Assembly: GCA_000165345.1 (NCBI GenBank)
Contig: CM000429.1
Location: 224,001 to 288,000 of the forward strand
DNA: 64,000 nucleotides
Direction of reading: 5' to 3'
The notes under the pieces: model-generated
What the model was told of the DNA's origin: nothing
Database searches by the model: none
The model's input: the letters and a program-made list of their open reading frames with translations, nothing else
Position numbers and translations under genes: made by a program
In this document: in pieces, positions 17,926 to 59,598 of the stretch
Numbering within the stretch: the stretch's first letter is position 1
Layout of the letters: each line of letters starts with the position of its first letter

Positions 17926-17944
17926 TGCATGCATGCATGCATGC
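17926..17944. repeat. (GCAT)n tandem array TGCATGCATGCATGCATGC in a convergent 3' intergenic region
   Basis: Direct read. It is 33 bp after the stop at 17893, between two convergent gene ends. Confidence 0.85.
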
Positions 17945-21792: not shown

Positions 21793-24294
<2,502 letters not shown>

Positions 24295-31653: not shown

Positions 31654-31666
31654 ATGCATGCATGCA
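31654..31666. promoter_or_regulatory. ATGCATGCATGCA, an overlapping double AP2-like site in the transhydrogenase upstream region
   Basis: About 130 bp upstream of the start at 31529 (minus strand). Additional CATGCAAT half-sites are at 31621..31645. Confidence 0.45.
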
Positions 31667-45661: not shown

Positions 45662-47962
45662 ATGGGAAATGATGATATAAAATATATTTGTATCAGATTA
45701 ATTTCAGGTCTAAAGTTTTTAGAATTTGATGATATAGAGACAGGAAAACCGTCCTTAAAGACTTCTCAAGGATTCAAAGGATGCAAACTTTTTTTGTCAA
45801 ATATTGAAATAGTGAATGAGATTCTGGAAATTGAGGCCTCAGATAGAATCTATAGAAGTTCCTTTACAAATAATTATAAGGCATTATTTCCATATCCTAA
45901 AAAAAGATTTTATCGTGTGGATGTTTTAGAAGCTTCAATAGAAGGTTATACATCAATATGGGTGAATGGAGAAAGATTTGAATTCAATTCAAATGTGATT
46001 CAAACAGGTAAAGATCTTCATGAAAGTTGGATTTGTTTGGTAACATTGATTTTTCAGATGAAAGATCTAATAGAAGAAAGGATTAAGAAAGAAAAGGAAT
46101 TAAAGATATTTGATTTTGAGAATGAGTTATGGAAGGCAAATGTAATTAATGTTCTAAAAAGATTTGATCAATCTTGGGTAGAATTTGAGAGGGAATATAT
46201 TACAGAACTGATTGCCATAGAAAATATTGCTAGAAGATTTATAATAAATTTACATAAATATATGTTAGAAAATGAAATTCTAAGTAATAATAGCGTTGGC
46301 GCCAAAATGGGTGTGAATATTGATAATAATATTGATATTTTTGTACATGAAATGCACAAGAAGGAAGAATCTGAAAATAACGGTAGCGACGGGAGTAGAT
46401 TAAAAAGTGAAATTAAGTGTAATAGTCTGGATCTAGTATTTTTTGAGCTAATAAAAAGCCTTTTTCGAGTTTTGAATCTAAATAATAAGCACAGCATTAC
46501 AGAAAACATTAATTTATCAACATGGGAACAAATAGTGCAAATTAACGAATTGGCGGCAAGCTCCCCACATTCTAGTTTTTCTGTAGTTGGCGCCTTGGGC
46601 ATGCATTGCGTGTCAGAAATGACAATATTGTTAGAAAAAGTCGCAGAAATATGCGAGATTCCAGAAAAGATAGACCCCCATATTTGTAATAATTTGAGCT
46701 TACAACAGCAAATTTTAAAGGTAGATGAGACATGGGGTATAGCAAAAAAACAATTTAATAAATTGGTATCAATGGAGAAAGAGGATGTTGATAAATTATC
46801 ACTTGTACAGCTTGTAAAATTGCTTCAAAAAGTGTTTTCAATTCAGTTTCAAATTAGAAGAAGAATTAAGGGGTTAGAAATTGGAGAATTAATCACTGAA
46901 ATAGGATCTGTGAATAATTTTGAAGAAATATGTTTATGGGAAAATATATTTGTTGAGAAATTAGAAGAATGTGATGTTATTGCATTATTGGCTCTTCCAA
47001 AGATTTGCTGTATTTTGTTTTTGGTAAATCCGGGAGTTTGTTCGGATATGATAAGTCAGTTTCTAAATAATGATACTACAATGGAATATCACTGGGTTCA
47101 ACAAGAAACTGAAAATATTGAAGATAAGTTAATAAAAAGTCAAATTTTCAGATCTATTCAATTGAATAATGCTTTACCCAATAATAAAAAGATTGAGAGT
47201 AAAAATTGCTCAGTTAAAAATTCTTTTTTAAATATGGTAACTCTTTGGAATTCATTCACAGAAGCTGTTTTATGTTGTGAAGATTATATGAATTTCTCAA
47301 CAAATTTACTAGCTTTAGAAACTAGTAAAAAAGCTTTCAATAAAGAAGAGATACTTTTTGTATATATTTTTTCACTATTAACAGGGACCTGTTTATGTGG
47401 AGAAAACCAAATAAATAATTGTAAAATCTGTAATAAAGAGACAAAGATCATTCAGGAAAATGAATTCATTAAAAAATCAGAAAAATTATTAAATTCTTTG
47501 TTAATTTCAATAGAGGAGGTGAGTATATTATTACAGAGAGTATCCGTTTCTGAATGGAATGAATTTATTCAAACTGCAGTAATTTGCATTACAAAATCAC
47601 CAATTATATTGGAAGAAATAATTAATGTTGATACTGATCAAACAGAAATTGAAATTGAACAAAATAATTTCCTTCTTAAATTGGAAGATAATACTACTAG
47701 TACTCAAACTAGTAGTAGCAATTCAGCATATATAGTGAGTCAAGCTAAAAATACTGATTCTTCTTCTTTTGTCATTAATAACACAAAAATTCAAAGTTTT
47801 TTAAGCAACATTGGCTCAATTATATATGAAAATGTTAAGAGTTATGGAAAATTTACCACTACTAGCAGAAGTTCAGTAACTCCAAAGCCTTCTGAAAGCT
47901 CTACAATGATTATGTATAGTAATTCTAATTCTAATTTCGATAATGCAACACATATATTATAA
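45662..47962 (+). CDS. Hypothetical 766-aa protein
   Basis: Long ORF of ordinary composition in gene-dense context. No recognisable domain. Confidence 0.5.
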   Translation: MGNDDIKYICIRLISGLKFLEFDDIETGKPSLKTSQGFKGCKLFLSNIEIVNEILEIEASDRIYRSSFTNNYKALFPYPKKRFYRVDVLEASIEGYTSIWVNGERFEFNSNVIQTGKDLHESWICLVTLIFQMKDLIEERIKKEKELKIFDFENELWKANVINVLKRFDQSWVEFEREYITELIAIENIARRFIINLHKYMLENEILSNNSVGAKMGVNIDNNIDIFVHEMHKKEESENNGSDGSRLKSEIKCNSLDLVFFELIKSLFRVLNLNNKHSITENINLSTWEQIVQINELAASSPHSSFSVVGALGMHCVSEMTILLEKVAEICEIPEKIDPHICNNLSLQQQILKVDETWGIAKKQFNKLVSMEKEDVDKLSLVQLVKLLQKVFSIQFQIRRRIKGLEIGELITEIGSVNNFEEICLWENIFVEKLEECDVIALLALPKICCILFLVNPGVCSDMISQFLNNDTTMEYHWVQQETENIEDKLIKSQIFRSIQLNNALPNNKKIESKNCSVKNSFLNMVTLWNSFTEAVLCCEDYMNFSTNLLALETSKKAFNKEEILFVYIFSLLTGTCLCGENQINNCKICNKETKIIQENEFIKKSEKLLNSLLISIEEVSILLQRVSVSEWNEFIQTAVICITKSPIILEEIINVDTDQTEIEIEQNNFLLKLEDNTTSTQTSSSNSAYIVSQAKNTDSSSFVINNTKIQSFLSNIGSIIYENVKSYGKFTTTSRSSVTPKPSESSTMIMYSNSNSNFDNATHIL

Positions 47963-48314
47963 GAAACTTAGTTTTTTAATCTGTCTATTTTTATTTTTCT
48001 AAATACTATACTTTGGTGTAAAACATTTTGATTAATCATTTATTTTTATTGCGATTTTTTGTTGTGTTGTTAAAAATAATCCAAATATACATATTACGTG
48101 TCAAATATTGAAATAAAGCTCTAAATAAAATTTAAAAAGAAAAAACAGAGTTAGTTCGAAATTATATTTAAAAGTTTAATACAATAATAAAAGTTGAAAC
48201 ATTTAAAAAATATTATGAAAAAAAAATGAGAAATTCTCTACTATTCCAAAACCTAAAGCTATCTGTTTCTAATTTATTGCATGTATTGTAATAAGTGGCC
48301 GCTAATCGTCCGGG

Positions 48315-48382
48315 ATTTCCCGCCAATTGCTTTGGCTGCATGCATTTTTTATATATGCAAAATTGCATGCAACGCATGCAGA
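48315..48382. promoter_or_regulatory. Motif cluster: ATTTCCCGCC (48315..48323), CTGCATGCAT (48337..48346), TTGCATGCAA (48363..48372) and CGCATGCAG (48374..48382)
   Basis: Direct read, 220-290 bp upstream of the ATG at 48604. Confidence 0.5.
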
Positions 48383-48603: not shown

Positions 48604-51600
48604 GTGCAGATAAATACGGGTCTGTGTGTAAGTGTGGGGATAAGGAGTCCGATGTCAAAGGCTTCACAGCTGGAGAAAGTGGAGCAACAAGAGGAAAATA
48701 TCTCAGAACTCATTAATGGTAGGGAAACTGTCAAAGGAGTAAGGAAAGATGTGCTGGAATATATGCAAGGAAGCTGGGAAGATCAATCGCTGCAAACGCC
48801 TCAGTCTGCAATGTTTAAAGCAAACAAAGAAAATGAGTCGGATATAATGGACACATATTGTGAAAGTGGGCCTGAGACTCCTGAAGAATGTTTAGATAAT
48901 TCTGAAGGGGGACTATCACCAATTAACTCAGCTGAGAGCGAGGGATTAAATGGAAGTATTGGAGATGTAAATCAATGCAAGATATGGGAGGAAGAAACTA
49001 TCAAAAAGTTTGAAAAGTTGTTAAGAAATATACAGCTTTTTAGCAGAGCTATTACAGTCTACATAATATATCATATCACAGTTTTGAACCTTTACCCATC
49101 AATATATACTGTTAATAAGGAAATGAATACTGATGAGATTTTTGAATATTATTATGCTCAACATATCATTCCAAAAAGCCTTCCAACTAGTATTATGGAT
49201 TCATGCTTTTTAGGTTGCATCATATTCATATTAACATATGTTGCCTCAAGAGCTCTGAGGGCAAATTTGAAGGAAATTAAAAGAAATAAGCTGAATAACT
49301 ATCAGATTAAGAAAGCTAGAAGTACTTATGGAAAGAAGATGATGATATGTGGGGTAGCAGGAAGAGTGTTTGGTATTTCCTGTCTATTGATTATTTTAGT
49401 TGGTTTGACACAATACGTTGCTCATGAAAGTTTAAACACTAAAGGATTACTGGTTCCAGATATTTGGTTCTCATTAGCCAAAGATAAATACAAATATGAT
49501 GATTATAAGGGATTTACAAGTTTGTTAGCCCATATAATATTATACTGGACAGGATTATCTGTTGACTTTTTTGGCTTCATTACTGCATTAAGAATGGTTT
49601 TTGCCTATGTTCACTTATTTGATGGAGTTATTCTTGGTATTTACTTATGTATGGTTGTAGGAATTGGTTTACCTTTAATGCAAGAAGGTCTTTTGGGACC
49701 AAAGAATTCATGCAATGCAAATGATCACCATTGGTATAAATTTGATACTCATGAGATCACATTCTTCAGGGATGAGTCAGGAAAGATTCGAACTGGAGAT
49801 TTCAGAGGTCCAACAAGTACTAATTACCCACCTCTATTTTACAGTGAATACATTACAATGGATGATGGAGTTAAAATTGCTGTAGATGTATATTTACCTA
49901 GAATCAGATTTGGGTACAAAACCTTGCCAACTGTAGTAGATATTACAAGATATAATAGAAGAATGGATGTTCATTGGCCATTCACTTTATTCTCTCTCTG
50001 GGGAGAACCCAAATCTGTATCAATGAATATTTGGTCTTGGCAAATTACTCAAACTTTTATTCCTAACTTTTATGCTGTTGTTGTAGTTGATACCAGGGGA
50101 ACAGGTGCAAGTACCGGGCATAGAATTGTGGATTTTTCAGAAAACGAGGTTGATGATTTTAGACAAATTATTGGATGGATAAAGAATCAGCCTTGGAGTA
50201 ATGGAAAGGTAGGAGTAGGAGGAATCAGTTATGATGGAATGGCTGCAATCAAAACAGCTGCATTATCTGGAAATAATGAATCTGAAAGCAGCTCAGAAGG
50301 TTTTAGAAGTGATAACAATCTAGTTGATGCAGTTTTTGCTCTTTCATCGCCAATGAATGTAATTAAAGAGTTAATTGAGCCAGGGGGTTTGATTTGTAAA
50401 CCTCTAGTGGAAGACTATTATAGTATAACATATTCGTTTGAACAATATGGATCTCCATTACTTCATTTCTTAAAAACGGTTGCATATTATCCTTTTAAAT
50501 TGGTGGTAGCCTTCTTATTAGTAATAGGAAATGTTTCTCCTGTTCAAGGGTATTCAAGTATTAAGAAGCAAGCATTGGAAATGCATCAAAAGAATTGGGA
50601 TATGTCAAAGACTATTAAGAAGTACAAGTACTTGGATGAACAGGTTGAGTTAGATGATGGAACTTTGATATACGCAGAAAGGCTTGGGAATACTGAAGAT
50701 GTTGCAACAATTCTCGGAAATAAGGGAGTAAATGTCTATTTAACTTCAGGATATTGTGATTCTGCTAACTCTAGAGGAGTAATTCAATTCTATGATGCTT
50801 TAGTAGAGTCAGCATCTAAGGCATATGAGCAGTATTTACTAGAAGCTGGAAATATGGCATCTAAAGAAAAACCTATATATAAGTTGGTCCTTGGTCCTTG
50901 GACTCACTCCGGCAGAGCAAGTTGCTCTCCATTTGGAAAAAGTATTTCTTGTTTTGAGCCAGCCTTATATTACGACTTGGTTAGATTTATGGACTGTGCT
51001 TTGAAAGGAATTTGCTGGGAAAACCAAGATAAGAACATTCATTTCTTCCAAGTTGGAGAAGAAAAATGGTATACTACAGACAAATTCCCTCCTCCAGATA
51101 CCAAGTATCTTCAGTTTTCTTTTGAAAAGCATGGAGAGAATGAAAAAAGTTCAATTCAAGAATTCTCATCAATATTAGGAACTAGATTTGTTCCACTTGT
51201 ATTCCAATCAAAAAAGAAGGAAACAAGAACAAATTTAAATCAAAGTCAAAACAATCCTTCAGGATCTTCCTCAAGCTACATTCAACTCAAAGTTGGTGAT
51301 AACTATTTCTCAGAATATAGATCCAGATGGATGATTGCAATGCATCCTTTTAGAGTTACAGTATCTTATAATGAGAAAGGAAAACAATTATGGCATGCTG
51401 GTGAAAGACTTCACCAAAAAAGAAAAAGTAGACAGCATATAAGATTTGCAACTGCACCATTTAAGGCAGATATACGACTTGTAGGGAGTGTTTGGTTACA
51501 TTTCTCAGTTCAACTTCTTGATGGTTATGATGCTCCAATCTATGTATACTTGGAGGATATTTCTCCAGAAAACGAAATTATGTATATAACAGAAGGATTG

Positions 51601-51963
51601 GCACAAATTGGACACAGACATGTTAATATGACAAAAAGTGCTCTTGAGAACATACCACATGGATCAGCAAGGAAGGTTATTAGGCCTCTTACAAGGAGTT
51701 ATTACCAGCCTTTAAGAAGAATTGGGGATGAATCTCCAATGCAAATCACTTTGGAACCAATTACTTGGACCTTCTTTAAAGATCACAGACTGGCCATCTC
51801 AATTACAGGTGCAGATACAAAGAACTTTAAACTACATCATATTTCTCAGAACATTAAAATAGCCAAAACCATTAATATTAAGCTGGACAACTCGTTTATG
51901 GTCAAACTTCCAGTTAATAGAGAGGACTACAATACTTGGATTGAGTTAAATCCTGAAGTTTAA
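48604..51963 (+). CDS. Membrane-anchored CocE/NonD-family (peptidase S15, X-Pro dipeptidyl-peptidase-like) alpha/beta hydrolase
   Basis: Residues of about 150-380 form four or more hydrophobic helices. The C-terminal 700 aa carry CocE/NonD hallmarks: ITMDDGVKIAVDVYLP, VVVDTRGTGASTGH, SENEVDDFRQIIGWIKNQPWSNGKVGVGGISYDGMAA (GxSYxG nucleophile). Confidence 0.75.
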   Translation: MQINTGLCVSVGIRSPMSKASQLEKVEQQEENISELINGRETVKGVRKDVLEYMQGSWEDQSLQTPQSAMFKANKENESDIMDTYCESGPETPEECLDNSEGGLSPINSAESEGLNGSIGDVNQCKIWEEETIKKFEKLLRNIQLFSRAITVYIIYHITVLNLYPSIYTVNKEMNTDEIFEYYYAQHIIPKSLPTSIMDSCFLGCIIFILTYVASRALRANLKEIKRNKLNNYQIKKARSTYGKKMMICGVAGRVFGISCLLIILVGLTQYVAHESLNTKGLLVPDIWFSLAKDKYKYDDYKGFTSLLAHIILYWTGLSVDFFGFITALRMVFAYVHLFDGVILGIYLCMVVGIGLPLMQEGLLGPKNSCNANDHHWYKFDTHEITFFRDESGKIRTGDFRGPTSTNYPPLFYSEYITMDDGVKIAVDVYLPRIRFGYKTLPTVVDITRYNRRMDVHWPFTLFSLWGEPKSVSMNIWSWQITQTFIPNFYAVVVVDTRGTGASTGHRIVDFSENEVDDFRQIIGWIKNQPWSNGKVGVGGISYDGMAAIKTAALSGNNESESSSEGFRSDNNLVDAVFALSSPMNVIKELIEPGGLICKPLVEDYYSITYSFEQYGSPLLHFLKTVAYYPFKLVVAFLLVIGNVSPVQGYSSIKKQALEMHQKNWDMSKTIKKYKYLDEQVELDDGTLIYAERLGNTEDVATILGNKGVNVYLTSGYCDSANSRGVIQFYDALVESASKAYEQYLLEAGNMASKEKPIYKLVLGPWTHSGRASCSPFGKSISCFEPALYYDLVRFMDCALKGICWENQDKNIHFFQVGEEKWYTTDKFPPPDTKYLQFSFEKHGENEKSSIQEFSSILGTRFVPLVFQSKKKETRTNLNQSQNNPSGSSSSYIQLKVGDNYFSEYRSRWMIAMHPFRVTVSYNEKGKQLWHAGERLHQKRKSRQHIRFATAPFKADIRLVGSVWLHFSVQLLDGYDAPIYVYLEDISPENEIMYITEGLAQIGHRHVNMTKSALENIPHGSARKVIRPLTRSYYQPLRRIGDESPMQITLEPITWTFFKDHRLAISITGADTKNFKLHHISQNIKIAKTINIKLDNSFMVKLPVNREDYNTWIELNPEV

Positions 51964-52453: not shown

Positions 52454-53839
52454 GTGGCTTTTGGCAGAATTATGAGTGTTTTAAGGAATAGATATATTCC
52501 CAGAATGGAAGAGTACAATTCTTCAAAATCAACAGGATATATGGGTTTTTGGGCATCTATTCTTTTGTCAATACCAGTAATTATACTTTGGGTATTTTCT
52601 GAGCTCTTTTCAAGAGGTTTGCTTTTCGAAAGTTTAAGAATGTCTTCAAATATGAGAGTAGCATATGGGGTCATGGCAGTAGTTGCTATTACTATGGTAA
52701 TGTCAATACATTTTCTCCCAAGTGGAACTTTTAGATGGCCTTGTTATGCTTTTTGGAAGATTATAATGGGCATGAATATTCTATATTTTATGCTTTTAAC
52801 ATTTTTACTCTTTCAGGACACAGAGCATATCAGAAATACTTTGGTTTATATTGACCCAAAGTTAATTGAAAAGGTCCCGGAGGTGAATTATGCAGGAAAT
52901 TCGTGTTCGATAATTGATGGATCAAATGGATGGTTTTCAAACATTCTTCCAAAGATAGATATGTTTGTTATTGCTCACTTCCTTGGTTGGATGGTCAAAG
53001 CATTAATCTTAAGGAATAATTTTCTTGTTTGGTTTAATTCAATATTGTTTGAATGGCTTGAAATTACCCTTAGACACATTTTACCAAACTTTTATGAATG
53101 CTGGTGGGACCATATAATTTTGGATATTTTTGGATGCAACATGATAGGTATATTCTTGGGGAATTATATAATTAAAAGATTCAACATGACTCGTTTTAAT
53201 TGGCATACTTGCCGTAATGGACTTGGAGGCCAAGAATATGATCATAAAGCAGGTGATTCAATTTCAAATTCAAAACAGAGTATAAAAGCTTCAAAAGAGG
53301 TAGGCTCTAGTTCTGTAAATAAGAAAAAACAAAAATCCACATCAAAACCAAGATTATTAAAAGTAAAGAATTTCATGTATTCATTGTTTAAATGGCCAAA
53401 AATTCTCACAACATTACGTGGTCTTGGATCTTTTTTGATTTTGACAGCAATTGTTCAGTTGATTGACTTGAATTACTTTTTTTTCAAAGCTGAGTTCAAT
53501 ATGCCAGTTTCTCACTGGATTTTTGGTTTAAGAACAGCTCTTTTGGCAATTAGTGGTGCTTCAGCAGTCAGAGAATTATATGAAACAATCGCAAGGGATT
53601 CATCAATTCACTTTGGTAAAGTGAGCTTTCAATGTTGGCTCATCGTGGTAGTAATCTTTACAGAATCACTGCTTTGTTGGAGATTTAGTGGAAATCTTCG
53701 TGTTGATTCTTTCATACCCTCGAATTTTATTATATATATTTGGACTTTTATCTTTTTCATTCTTGTTGTTTTGTATTTATTTTTAACTTTGAAAAGTTTT
53801 TTTCAAAATTTTGGTCCAAGCGACAAAAAAAATAAATAA
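52454..53839 (+). CDS. PSS: Phosphatidylserine synthase, base-exchange type (PTDSS1/2-like)
   Basis: IAHFLGWMVKALILRNNFLVWFNSILFEWLEITLRHILPNFYECWWDHIILDIFGCNMIGIFLG closely matches the conserved PTDSS core (AHFIGWAMKALLIR...LPNFAECWWDQVILDIL). It is a multi-pass TM protein of 461 aa. Confidence 0.75.
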   Translation: MAFGRIMSVLRNRYIPRMEEYNSSKSTGYMGFWASILLSIPVIILWVFSELFSRGLLFESLRMSSNMRVAYGVMAVVAITMVMSIHFLPSGTFRWPCYAFWKIIMGMNILYFMLLTFLLFQDTEHIRNTLVYIDPKLIEKVPEVNYAGNSCSIIDGSNGWFSNILPKIDMFVIAHFLGWMVKALILRNNFLVWFNSILFEWLEITLRHILPNFYECWWDHIILDIFGCNMIGIFLGNYIIKRFNMTRFNWHTCRNGLGGQEYDHKAGDSISNSKQSIKASKEVGSSSVNKKKQKSTSKPRLLKVKNFMYSLFKWPKILTTLRGLGSFLILTAIVQLIDLNYFFFKAEFNMPVSHWIFGLRTALLAISGASAVRELYETIARDSSIHFGKVSFQCWLIVVVIFTESLLCWRFSGNLRVDSFIPSNFIIYIWTFIFFILVVLYLFLTLKSFFQNFGPSDKKNK

Positions 53840-59313: not shown

Positions 59314-59574
59314 TAGGGACAGAGATATGATAATTTACTATTTTATTTTTTTGTAAAAAAGTCAAAATTGAATGGTATCTCCTTATTCTGGACGTCTGGA
59401 ACATTTCCATTTTTAATCTTTTCAACCCTCACCATAGGGCATTCTTTTTTCTTTTTTTCATGATTCTATTTAAATTTAATTTATGTAAATACATGCATTA
59501 ATCTATTTTTTTTTTTATTACCTGTGCTTATGCAATACAATCGCCAAATTTTTTTATGTGGACGTCCACAATAA

Positions 59575-59598
59575 TGCATGCATGCATGCATGCATGCA
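59575..59598. repeat. (GCAT)6 tandem array TGCATGCATGCATGCATGCATGCA in a divergent promoter
   Basis: Direct read, 87 bp upstream of the ATG at 59685. Confidence 0.9.

What the first reader, a model, noticed from the sequence alone, without database searches (positions are those of the whole stretch)
48604..51963. Bacterial-type CocE/NonD (peptidase S15) hydrolase fused to a multi-pass membrane N-terminal region
CocE/NonD / X-Pro dipeptidyl-peptidase family enzymes are overwhelmingly bacterial and normally soluble. Here the catalytic module (VVVDTRGTGASTGH ... GISYDGMAA) sits behind a region of about 380 aa with four or more TM helices, in a single uninterrupted eukaryotic ORF with its own E2F/AP2-type promoter cluster. 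This is a plausible ancient horizontal acquisition that has been given a membrane anchor. Its function is unknown.
Basis: partly seen in the sequence, partly recalled or inferred. Interest (0 to 1): 0.6.

Follow-up and report, generated by a model that had tools for sequence, protein, structure and literature searches.

The report
Membrane-anchored CocE/NonD hydrolase of Cryptosporidium
This is an already annotated Cryptosporidium parvum gene for a five-pass membrane protein carrying a cocaine-esterase-type serine hydrolase; it is an old gene shared with Toxoplasma, Eimeria, gregarines and Chromera, not a Cryptosporidium-specific bacterial import, and its substrate is still unknown.

Summary
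It is not new: the protein is identical to GenBank EAK88473.1, C. parvum Iowa II, named "alpha beta hydrolase with 5 transmembrane domains". Orthologues with the same TM block occur in Toxoplasma, Besnoitia, Cyclospora, Eimeria, Rhytidocystis, the gregarine Lankesteria and Chromera. They share an invariant intramembrane Asp in TM4 and a D.HW..F motif after TM5, and *Chromera* lacks only the Pro of the FPDIW motif. The fusion therefore predates Apicomplexa. The next-closest relatives are eukaryotic (Amoebozoa, stramenopile, cryptophyte, Euglenozoa, Rhizaria), not bacterial. A very ancient bacterial origin of this eukaryotic subfamily can be neither shown nor excluded. The enzyme is CocE-like and is not a PepX orthologue. 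The positive-inside rule places the catalytic domain in the lumen or outside the cell. The most likely function is an active exoplasmic ester/amide hydrolase held on a membrane by a conserved, probably functional, TM module. The substrate is unknown. Interest is low to moderate.

The parts
48310..48380 (+). Upstream promoter-motif cluster: E2F-like TTCCCGCC (48317-48324) and GCATGC cores at 48338, 48365 and 48374
   Evidence: Read directly. Both motifs are generic in this window's intergenic regions.
48604..48651 (+). In-frame upstream extension from a GTG; not part of the CDS
   Evidence: The first ATG is at 48652. The product starting at that ATG is identical to EAK88473.1.
48652..51963 (+). 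Complete intron-free CDS, 1103 aa plus TAA: C. parvum 'alpha beta hydrolase with 5 transmembrane domains' (EAK88473.1 / CPATCC_000310)
48652..48960 (+). N-terminal tail, aa 1-103: acidic, Ser/Thr-rich, predicted disordered, conserved only within the genus; inferred to be cytosolic
   Evidence: pLDDT 30-42. 26 D/E against 11 K/R. Aligns only among Cryptosporidium species.
49030..49092 (+). TM1 (aa 127-147), containing conserved Tyr137, His141 and Leu145
   Evidence: Hydropathy and AF2 helix. Invariant columns between Cryptosporidium and Rhytidocystis.
49183..49251 (+). TM2 (aa 178-200)
49252..49335 (+). Loop 2-3 (aa 201-228), 9 K/R against 1 D/E: the cytosolic loop that sets the topology
   Evidence: applying the positive-inside rule (inference).
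49336..49404 (+). TM3 (aa 229-251), with conserved Arg238 and Gly241
49456..49467 (+). PDIW motif (aa 269-272) in the exoplasmic loop 3-4; the PD pair is near-invariant in orthologues
49522..49590 (+). TM4 (aa 291-313), carrying the invariant intramembrane Asp305 (49564-49566) in the [IVL]D..G motif
   Evidence: the Asp is present in all 15 orthologues that cover TM4, including Chromera. Also.
49615..49683 (+). TM5 (aa 322-344)
49711..49734 (+). CNANDHHW motif (aa 354-361) just after TM5; D.HW..F is conserved in all apicomplexan and chromerid orthologues
49828..51036 (+). Alpha/beta-hydrolase domain plus helical cap (aa 393-795). Contains DTRGTGAS (50089-50112), nucleophile Ser526 (50227-50229), Asp703 (50758-50760), His752 (50905-50907) and the candidate oxyanion Tyr434 (49951-49953)
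   Evidence: Pfam and NCBIfam. Alignment to CocE Ser117/Asp259/His287. Conservation across 113 family members. Fold match to CocE.
50467..50550 (+). Hydrophobic insert in the cap (aa 606-633, FLKTVAYYPFKLVVAFLLVIGNVSPVQG); present in Cryptosporidium and Rhytidocystis, absent from the ~620-aa relatives
   Evidence: Modelled as a helix plus strand at pLDDT 82-93, not as a TM helix.
51037..51915 (+). C-terminal beta (jelly-roll) domain, aa 796-1088 (Pfam PepX_C), with a low-complexity insert at about aa 830-875

Best explanation
The locus is the C. parvum chromosome-1 gene for EAK88473.1, a polytopic membrane serine hydrolase. It was inherited vertically from at least the common ancestor of apicomplexans and chromerids.

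Anatomy:
- a disordered acidic N-tail, inferred to be cytosolic;
- a five-helix membrane module with an invariant buried Asp (Asp305, TM4), a PD.W loop motif and a D.HW..F motif at the membrane exit;
- a three-domain CocE-type hydrolase (alpha/beta fold, helical cap, C-terminal jelly-roll).

Mechanism:
- Ser526, activated by His752 and Asp703, attacks an ester or amide carbonyl to form an acyl-enzyme, which water then resolves. A conserved Tyr and the backbone after the nucleophile stabilise the oxyanion, as in cocaine esterase.
- With five TM helices and a strongly basic loop 2-3, the catalytic domain faces the lumen of the secretory or endolysosomal system, or the outside of the cell. That is the same side of the membrane as the signal-peptide or lipoprotein forms of its bacterial relatives.
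- The enzyme therefore works on a luminal or extracellular substrate (small ester, peptide N-terminus or lipid-linked group; not resolved) while held against the membrane.
- The TM module is conserved well beyond what an anchor needs. It probably contributes to substrate access, partner binding or sorting.

Shown: identity, domain family, triad conservation, fold, homology of the TM block across Apicomplexa and Chromera, and eukaryotic nearest neighbours.

Inferred: topology, catalytic activity, and any role for the TM module.

Unknown: substrate and compartment.
For: - Identity: exact match to EAK88473.1, 'alpha beta hydrolase with 5 transmembrane domains'.
- Family: TIGR00976 169 bits against cutoff 66; Peptidase_S15 and PepX_C above their cutoffs.
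- Triad: Ser526, Asp703 and His752 align with CocE Ser117, Asp259 and His287. Each is at least 90% conserved in 113 family members and invariant in the orthologues.
- Fold: the AF2 model (pLDDT 77, pTM 0.75) matches CocE at TM-score 0.72-0.76 normalised to the target.
- TM module: five helices. The block aligns across Cryptosporidium, Rhytidocystis, GHVT, Toxoplasma, Besnoitia, Cyclospora, Eimeria, Lankesteria and Chromera, with invariant Asp305 and the D.HW..F motif; the PD pair is near-invariant (Chromera keeps only the D).
- Phylogeny: Apicomplexa form a clade at bootstrap 90, and bootstrap 89 with Chromera.
- Nearest outgroups are eukaryotic: Flabellula, Rhizamoeba, Ochromonas, Rhodomonas, Lacrimia, Papus, Paulinella, and contigs with eukaryote-like gene structure.
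- Topology: loop 2-3 has 9 K/R against 1 D/E. All seven Cys of the catalytic region are invariant between Cryptosporidium and Rhytidocystis, which fits an oxidising compartment. The ~620-aa relatives have signal-peptide or lipoprotein-like N-termini.
Against: - No experimental data on activity, localisation or essentiality were found. The literature yielded only a transcript change for a Toxoplasma CocE/NonD gene and an oocyst-stage marker in Eimeria.
- Topology rests on the positive-inside rule and hydropathy alone. TM1 and TM4 are only moderately hydrophobic, so a four-TM reading would put the catalytic domain in the cytosol.
- The tree is a distance (NJ) tree, and support for a single eukaryotic cluster is only bootstrap 36. 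Most sequences carry no taxon label.
- The oxyanion Tyr assignment is ambiguous: the multiple alignment gives Tyr434, whereas HMMER aligns CocE position 44 to the WPF444 motif.
- Some TM-bearing relatives lack the nucleophile (Papus has GIGYDG), so the scaffold can persist without catalysis.
Confidence: 0.65

Rival explanations
1. One reading: a bacterial CocE/NonD gene was transferred horizontally into the Cryptosporidium lineage, or into a recent ancestor, and then acquired a membrane anchor.
For: The family is overwhelmingly prokaryotic in numbers: 7908 profile hits, with the named ones mostly bacterial. Cryptosporidium has documented bacterial acquisitions.
Against: Orthologues with the same TM block and motifs exist in coccidia, Rhytidocystis, Lankesteria and Chromera, forming a clade at bootstrap 89-90. 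The best bacterial matches are only 24-27% identical, against 34-45% to other apicomplexans. The gene is absent from the Huang et al. 2004 HGT list.
Confidence: 0.03
2. The weak form: the whole eukaryotic, often TM-anchored, CocE/NonD subfamily descends from one very ancient bacterial gene, acquired by endosymbiotic or horizontal transfer. It then either spread between eukaryotes or was inherited from an early eukaryotic ancestor. This is compatible with the best explanation for everything after that event.
For: All 20 labelled eukaryotic sequences fall on one side of a bipartition that excludes all five named bacteria. The multi-TM form is not matched in reference bacterial genomes. The family is numerically dominated by bacteria. 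Distribution among eukaryotes is patchy, and no Plasmodium, Babesia or Theileria hits were seen.
Against: That bipartition has only bootstrap 36. The tree is unrooted NJ, and most leaves are unlabelled metagenome proteins. A patchy distribution is equally explained by loss. No donor lineage stands out: Nitrospirota, Acidobacteriota and Bacteroidota are all similarly distant.
Confidence: 0.4
3. It is a true X-prolyl dipeptidyl aminopeptidase (PepX, MEROPS S15 in the strict sense), as several database names say. It would trim X-Pro dipeptides from secretory proteins, by analogy with membrane-bound Ste13/DPP4.
For: Product names such as 'X-Pro dipeptidyl-peptidase (S15 family)'. Pfam domain names. 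A family member, 4pf1, is described as an aminopeptidase.
Against: The NCBIfam Xaa-Pro dipeptidyl-peptidase model NF003780 scores 30 bits against a cutoff of 642. In the PDB profile search PepX has E 6.5e-07, against 2e-43 for CocE. Structural TM-score to PepX is 0.47-0.49, against 0.72-0.76 for CocE. The residues after the catalytic Asp are S-A-N, not the acidic pair that, from memory, binds the substrate amino group in alpha-amino-acid ester hydrolases.
Confidence: 0.1
4. The apparent fusion is a gene-model or assembly artefact that joins a small membrane-protein gene to a soluble hydrolase gene.
For: None beyond the general possibility. The linker at aa 345-392 is modelled with low confidence.
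Against: There is one uninterrupted frame with no stop. The architecture is identical in independent assemblies of at least eight Cryptosporidium species, and in transcriptome-derived ORFs of Rhytidocystis and Lankesteria. The conserved D.HW..F motif bridges the two parts.
Confidence: 0.01

Closest known systems
Rhodococcus cocaine esterase CocE (PDB 1ju3, 3i2j and others)
   Same: Best sequence-profile match (E 2e-43) and best fold match (TMt 0.72-0.76). Same three-domain layout. The Ser/Asp/His triad aligns residue for residue, with GxSYxG and GPWxHS motifs.
   Different: CocE is a soluble cytoplasmic bacterial enzyme of 574 aa. This protein has about 390 extra N-terminal residues with five TM helices, a hydrophobic cap insert and a low-complexity insert in the beta domain. 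Identity is only about 15% in the structural alignment. There is no reason to expect cocaine or benzoyl-ester specificity.
Toxoplasma gondii 'hydrolase CocE/NonD family protein' (XP_002366380.2; probably TGME49/TGGT1_227370) and its coccidian orthologues
   Same: Orthologous. They share the TM3-TM5 block with FPDIY, [IVL]D..G and CN..D.HW motifs, are about 42% identical in the catalytic region, and fall in the same clade.
   Different: They are longer (1260-1689 aa) with lineage-specific inserts, and TM1-2 are poorly alignable or missing from some gene models. They are equally uncharacterised. The only report found is a 1.75 log2 up-regulation in a phosphate-transporter knockout. The equation of that gene ID with P0028 was not verified here.
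Chromera velia Cvel_13261 (996 aa)
   Same: Sister to the apicomplexan clade (bootstrap 89). It has a TM N-terminus with the TM4 Asp and the D.HW.NF motif.
   Different: It comes from a free-living phototroph. TM1-3 are divergent, and the PD motif is replaced by LD.
Alpha-amino-acid ester hydrolases (PDB 1mpx, 2b9v) and the S. aureus SACOL2612 CocE/NonD hydrolase (3ib3)
   Same: Same family and fold.
   Different: More distant than CocE. They are soluble. The acidic cluster next to the catalytic Asp that defines the ester hydrolases (recalled from memory) is not present here (GYCD-SAN).
Membrane-anchored serine exopeptidases DPP4/FAP and yeast Ste13 (family S9). This is a functional analogy recalled from memory, not homology beyond the alpha/beta-hydrolase fold.
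   Same: An alpha/beta-hydrolase catalytic domain displayed on the exoplasmic face of a membrane.
   Different: Those have a single-pass type II anchor and a beta-propeller. The Pfam Peptidase_S9 match here is insignificant. This protein's anchor is a conserved five-helix module.

Membership tests
CocE/NonD hydrolase family (TIGR00976; Pfam Peptidase_S15 + PepX_C; MEROPS S15 in the broad sense) | Whole-protein score above the curated cutoff of the family models | tested here: met
   TIGR00976 169.3 bits against 66.3. PF02129 99.8 against 23. PF08530 44 against 22.5.
CocE/NonD hydrolase family | Ser-Asp-His catalytic triad in the GxSYxG, (G/A)(W/Y)xD and GPWxH motifs | tested here: met
   Ser526, Asp703 and His752 align with CocE Ser117, Asp259 and His287. 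Conserved in at least 90% of 113 members.
CocE/NonD hydrolase family | Three-domain fold: alpha/beta hydrolase, helical cap, C-terminal jelly-roll | tested here: met
   AF2 model with pLDDT above 90 over most of aa 400-1100. Foldseek against CocE gives E 2e-27 and TMt 0.72-0.76 over about 740 columns.
CocE/NonD hydrolase family | Tyr side chain contributing to the oxyanion hole (CocE Tyr44) | tested here: inconclusive
   Invariant Tyr434 (TRY) aligns with the family TPY motif in the multiple alignment. HMMER instead aligns CocE position 44 with the WPF444 motif.
CocE/NonD hydrolase family | Hydrolytic activity | not testable with these tools
   No biochemical data were found.
Xaa-Pro dipeptidyl-peptidase PepX (NF003780/PRK05371) | Score above the subfamily cutoff, and closest structural relative is PepX | tested here: not met
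   30.2 bits against a cutoff of 642. PepX 6nff has E 6.5e-07 against 2e-43 for CocE. TMt is 0.47-0.49.
Prolyl oligopeptidase / DPP4 family (S9, PF00326) | Significant match to Peptidase_S9 | tested here: not met
   No S9 hit for the query at E<=0.01. The orthologues score only E 0.14-0.2.
Alpha-amino-acid ester hydrolases | Acidic cluster, including two acidic residues two and three positions after the catalytic Asp (definition recalled from memory) | tested here: not met
   The sequence after Asp703 is S-A-N (GYCDSAN). These enzymes score weaker than CocE in the PDB searches.
Apicomplexan/chromerid five-TM CocE/NonD orthologue group (defined here) | N-terminal TM block with FPD(I/V)(W/Y) after TM3, [IVL]D..G in TM4 and P.CN..D.HW..F after TM5, followed by the hydrolase | tested here: met
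   All three motifs are present in C. parvum (aa 268-272, 304-308, 352-364) and shared with the orthologues.
Horizontally acquired bacterial genes of Cryptosporidium | Nearest phylogenetic neighbours are bacterial, and orthologues are absent from other apicomplexans or eukaryotes | tested here: not met
   The nearest neighbours are apicomplexan, chromerid and other eukaryotic sequences. The gene is not on the published list.

The most novel reading that the evidence does not exclude
The five-helix module is not a mere anchor. With its invariant intramembrane Asp305, the PD.W loop and the D.HW..F exit motif, it would be a functional partner of the hydrolase, for example a gate or groove that presents a membrane-embedded or lipid-linked substrate to the exoplasmic active site, or a sensor coupling. 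That would define an undescribed class of polytopic membrane hydrolases conserved in Cryptosporidium, coccidia, gregarines and chromerids, and apparently missing from Plasmodium and piroplasms. If mammals lack the family (my recollection, not tested here), it would be a parasite-selective target.
Probability: 0.2. Interest if true: 0.55.

Novelty: already known. Interest (0 to 1): 0.28.

Why it matters
As a finding it adds little. GenBank has described this protein as an alpha/beta hydrolase with five transmembrane domains since the 2004 genome, and other Cryptosporidium records already call it a CocE/NonD hydrolase.

This analysis adds four things:
- The fusion is ancestral to apicomplexans and chromerids and belongs to a eukaryote-wide, often membrane-anchored CocE/NonD subfamily. 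It should not be counted among Cryptosporidium's bacterial acquisitions.
- The 'X-Pro dipeptidyl-peptidase' name is a Pfam-derived label and does not indicate orthology.
- The membrane module carries invariant polar residues, which suggests it is functional.
- The catalytic domain most likely faces the lumen or the exterior.

The protein remains a conserved, catalytically intact and completely uncharacterised serine hydrolase in several important parasites. That makes it a reasonable candidate for activity-based profiling or knockout, but not a surprise.

Tried and rejected
- **TM block alone as query:** I searched the indexed protein database with alignment A4 and got zero hits. The search did not recover even the source proteins, so the negative is uninformative. 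I relied on the exhaustive profile search instead.
- **Pfam on the N-terminal 393 aa:** no family matched even at E<=1.
- **First AF2 run:** with only eight sequences it gave pLDDT 44. I discarded it except for the helix positions. The second run with 113 sequences was usable.
- **AFDB fold search:** the library was unavailable.
- **Literature:** searches for the product names, the CocE/NonD plus Apicomplexa combination, and the Toxoplasma gene ID gave no functional study. The 'anywhere' search for 227370 returned mostly noise.
- **Sixth TM helix?** I considered the hydrophobic segment at aa 606-633 and rejected it. It is modelled confidently inside the cap domain and lies between conserved catalytic-domain elements.
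- **Bacterial TM-bearing family members?** I tested whether P0070, P0083, P0156, P0077 and P0079, which sit in the 'bacterial' part of the tree, show that bacteria also make multi-pass forms. The reference-genome scan matched only their catalytic domains, so their origin stays unknown.
- **Taxonomy correction:** I had assumed from memory that Papus was a rhizarian. The taxonomy lookup shows it is a kinetoplastid.


Full report
**What is at the coordinates**

The window is AT-rich (about 30% GC) and packed with long intron-free ORFs. The interval 48604..51963 (+) is one open frame of 1119 codons counted from a GTG. The first ATG is at 48652. The 1103-aa product from that ATG is an exact match to GenBank EAK88473.1 and QOY43517.1 (CPATCC_000310) of Cryptosporidium parvum. 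Its product name is "alpha beta hydrolase with 5 transmembrane domains". C. hominis copies are named "hydrolase CocE/NonD family protein" or "X-Pro dipeptidyl-peptidase".

**Checking the observation**

- **Domains.** Pfam gives Peptidase_S15 at 99.8 bits and PepX_C at 44 bits, both above cutoff. NCBIfam gives TIGR00976 CocE_NonD at 169 bits against a cutoff of 66.
- **Membrane region.** Hydropathy and the second AlphaFold model (113-sequence alignment, pLDDT 77, pTM 0.75) give five long helices between aa 104 and 346.
- **Sixth hydrophobic stretch.** The segment at aa 606-633 lies inside the catalytic domain. It is modelled with confidence as a helix plus strand of the cap, not as a TM helix.
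- **Promoter.** Upstream there is one E2F-like TTCCCGCC and three GCATGC cores within 48317-48379. Both motifs are strongly enriched all over the window (46 against 5.8 expected; 14 against 1.7), so this is an ordinary Cryptosporidium promoter.
- **Artefact?** The fusion is colinear in at least eight Cryptosporidium species and in transcriptome ORFs of other apicomplexans, so it is not an assembly or intron artefact.

**Catalytic machinery and family placement**

Ser526 (GISYDG), Asp703 (GYCDSA) and His752 (GPWTHS) align with Ser117, Asp259 and His287 of Rhodococcus cocaine esterase. They are invariant in the orthologues and at least 90% conserved in 113 family members.

A profile of the subfamily hits CocE best (E 2e-43). 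The S. aureus CocE/NonD hydrolase 3ib3 follows at 1.6e-34, and the archaeal aminopeptidase 4pf1 and the alpha-amino-acid ester hydrolases at about 1e-21 to 1e-23. True PepX scores only 6.5e-07. Foldseek gives the same order: TM-score to CocE 0.72-0.76 and to PepX 0.47-0.49. The NCBIfam PepX model scores 30 bits against a cutoff of 642. The protein is therefore a CocE-branch member. The "X-Pro dipeptidyl-peptidase" names are inherited from the Pfam domain name. It is also not an S9 prolyl-oligopeptidase or DPP4 enzyme.

The identity of the oxyanion Tyr is unresolved. The multiple alignment gives Tyr434, while HMMER gives the WPF444 position.

**How old is the fusion?**

The first protein search found orthologues across Cryptosporidium at 60-98% identity, and then two long proteins at 36-40% identity. 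The literature and EukProt accessions identify these as Rhytidocystis pertsovi and Rhytidocystis sp., which are Marosporida, Apicomplexa.

An exhaustive profile search of 1.84 billion representatives found 7908 family members. The best of these, once named through cluster look-ups and a third indexed search, are Toxoplasma/Hammondia, Besnoitia, Cystoisospora, Cyclospora, Eimeria (three species), the gregarine Lankesteria, a further EukProt apicomplexan-like transcript (GHVT) and Chromera velia.

Alignment of their N-terminal parts shows that the membrane block is homologous. Three motifs recur: FPD(I/V)(W/Y) after TM3, an [IVL]D..G motif with an invariant intramembrane Asp in TM4 (Asp305 in C. 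parvum), and P.CN..D.HW..F directly after TM5.

In an NJ tree of 235 catalytic domains (570 columns, 100 bootstraps), Apicomplexa are monophyletic at bootstrap 90, and at bootstrap 89 together with Chromera and three unlabelled sequences.

No Plasmodium, Babesia or Theileria protein appeared among named or top-scoring hits. This suggests loss in Hematozoa, but I could not test it directly.

**Bacterial or eukaryotic neighbours?**

The next-best sequences come from these organisms:
- Flabellula and Rhizamoeba (Amoebozoa)
- Ochromonas (stramenopile)
- Rhodomonas (cryptophyte)
- Lacrimia (diplonemid)
- Papus (kinetoplastid)
- Paulinella (Rhizaria)

About 30 of the 150 best family members carry 3-5 hydrophobic segments ahead of the catalytic domain.

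All 20 labelled eukaryotic sequences fall on one side of a bipartition that excludes all five named bacteria, but support is only bootstrap 36. The unlabelled members of that side have eukaryote-labelled best hits. Two that lie on megabase-scale contigs sit in eukaryote-like contexts, with fragmented ORF calls and an RPN6 proteasome-lid fragment next door.

A scan of one genome for each of about 185,000 bacterial and archaeal species, using TM-bearing family members as query, matched only the catalytic domain at no more than 47% identity. The multi-pass form is therefore not a normal bacterial architecture. The ~620-aa relatives have signal-peptide or lipoprotein-like N-termini.

EAK88473 is not among the transfer candidates of Huang et al. 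2004.

Taken together, a transfer into Cryptosporidium is effectively excluded. A very deep bacterial origin of the eukaryotic subfamily is possible but unresolved.

**Topology and mechanism**

Loop 2-3 carries 9 K/R against 1 D/E, while the other loops are neutral or acidic. With five helices, the positive-inside rule places the N-tail in the cytosol and the catalytic domain on the exoplasmic side. All seven Cys of the catalytic region are invariant between Cryptosporidium and Rhytidocystis, which agrees with an oxidising compartment. The secreted or lipoprotein nature of the short relatives points the same way.

I therefore propose an active Ser-His-Asp hydrolase that works by an acyl-enzyme mechanism on a luminal or extracellular ester or amide. 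It is held at the membrane by a module whose invariant buried Asp and flanking motifs suggest a role beyond anchoring.

The sequence after the catalytic Asp (S-A-N) lacks the acidic pair that, from my memory of the ester-hydrolase structures, binds a substrate alpha-amino group. That weakly favours an esterase or amidase over an aminopeptidase-like activity.

Substrate and compartment are unknown. The only functional hints found are a 1.75 log2 up-regulation of a Toxoplasma CocE/NonD gene in a phosphate-transporter knockout with a swollen lysosome-like compartment, and high expression of an Eimeria maxima homologue in immature oocysts.

**Verdict**

The protein is a conserved, uncharacterised membrane hydrolase of apicomplexans and chromerids. 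It is of modest interest as a target for functional work and is not a surprising discovery.

Noticed in passing
window 52454..53839 (+): The next gene downstream on the same strand is a phosphatidylserine synthase (PF03034, 268 bits), another polytopic membrane enzyme. I did not test whether the adjacency to the hydrolase is conserved.
   Followed up: no
window 45662..47962 (+): The upstream 766-aa ORF has no Pfam match at E<=0.01. It is an uncharacterised Cryptosporidium protein.
   Followed up: no
window 17927-17944, 31656-31665, 59574-59598: Short tandem (ATGC)n arrays made of overlapping GCATGC cores. Overall, GCATGC occurs 46 times in the window against 5.8 expected.
   Followed up: partly
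P0014 (Papus ankaliazontas); also P0043, P0045 and P0066: Some TM-bearing eukaryotic relatives lack the nucleophile Ser (Papus has GIGYDG). They look like pseudoenzymes that kept the scaffold and the membrane anchor.
   Followed up: partly
A4 query (TM block, aa 118-398 of the protein): The indexed protein search with the TM-block alignment returned no hits at all, not even the source proteins. This is a failed positive control and should not be read as absence.
   Followed up: yes
window 23344-23431, inside ORF 21793..24294: A (TAG)n / AGTAATAGT repeat array lies inside a long ORF. It encodes a low-complexity Ser/Asn-type tract, which is typical for this genome.
   Followed up: no
Huang et al. 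2004 table (PMC545779): Two chromosome-I genes on the published bacterial-origin list (AAA ATPase EAK88388 and glutamine cyclotransferase EAK88499) have accession numbers close to EAK88473. They may lie near or inside this window.
   Followed up: no
L001 (P0188) and L002 (P0186), metagenome contigs of 1.14 Mb and 0.85 Mb: Intact intron-free CocE/NonD genes (797 aa with 4 TM; 638 aa) sit in contexts that look eukaryotic: fragmented short ORF calls and an RPN6 fragment. The source organisms are unidentified.
   Followed up: partly
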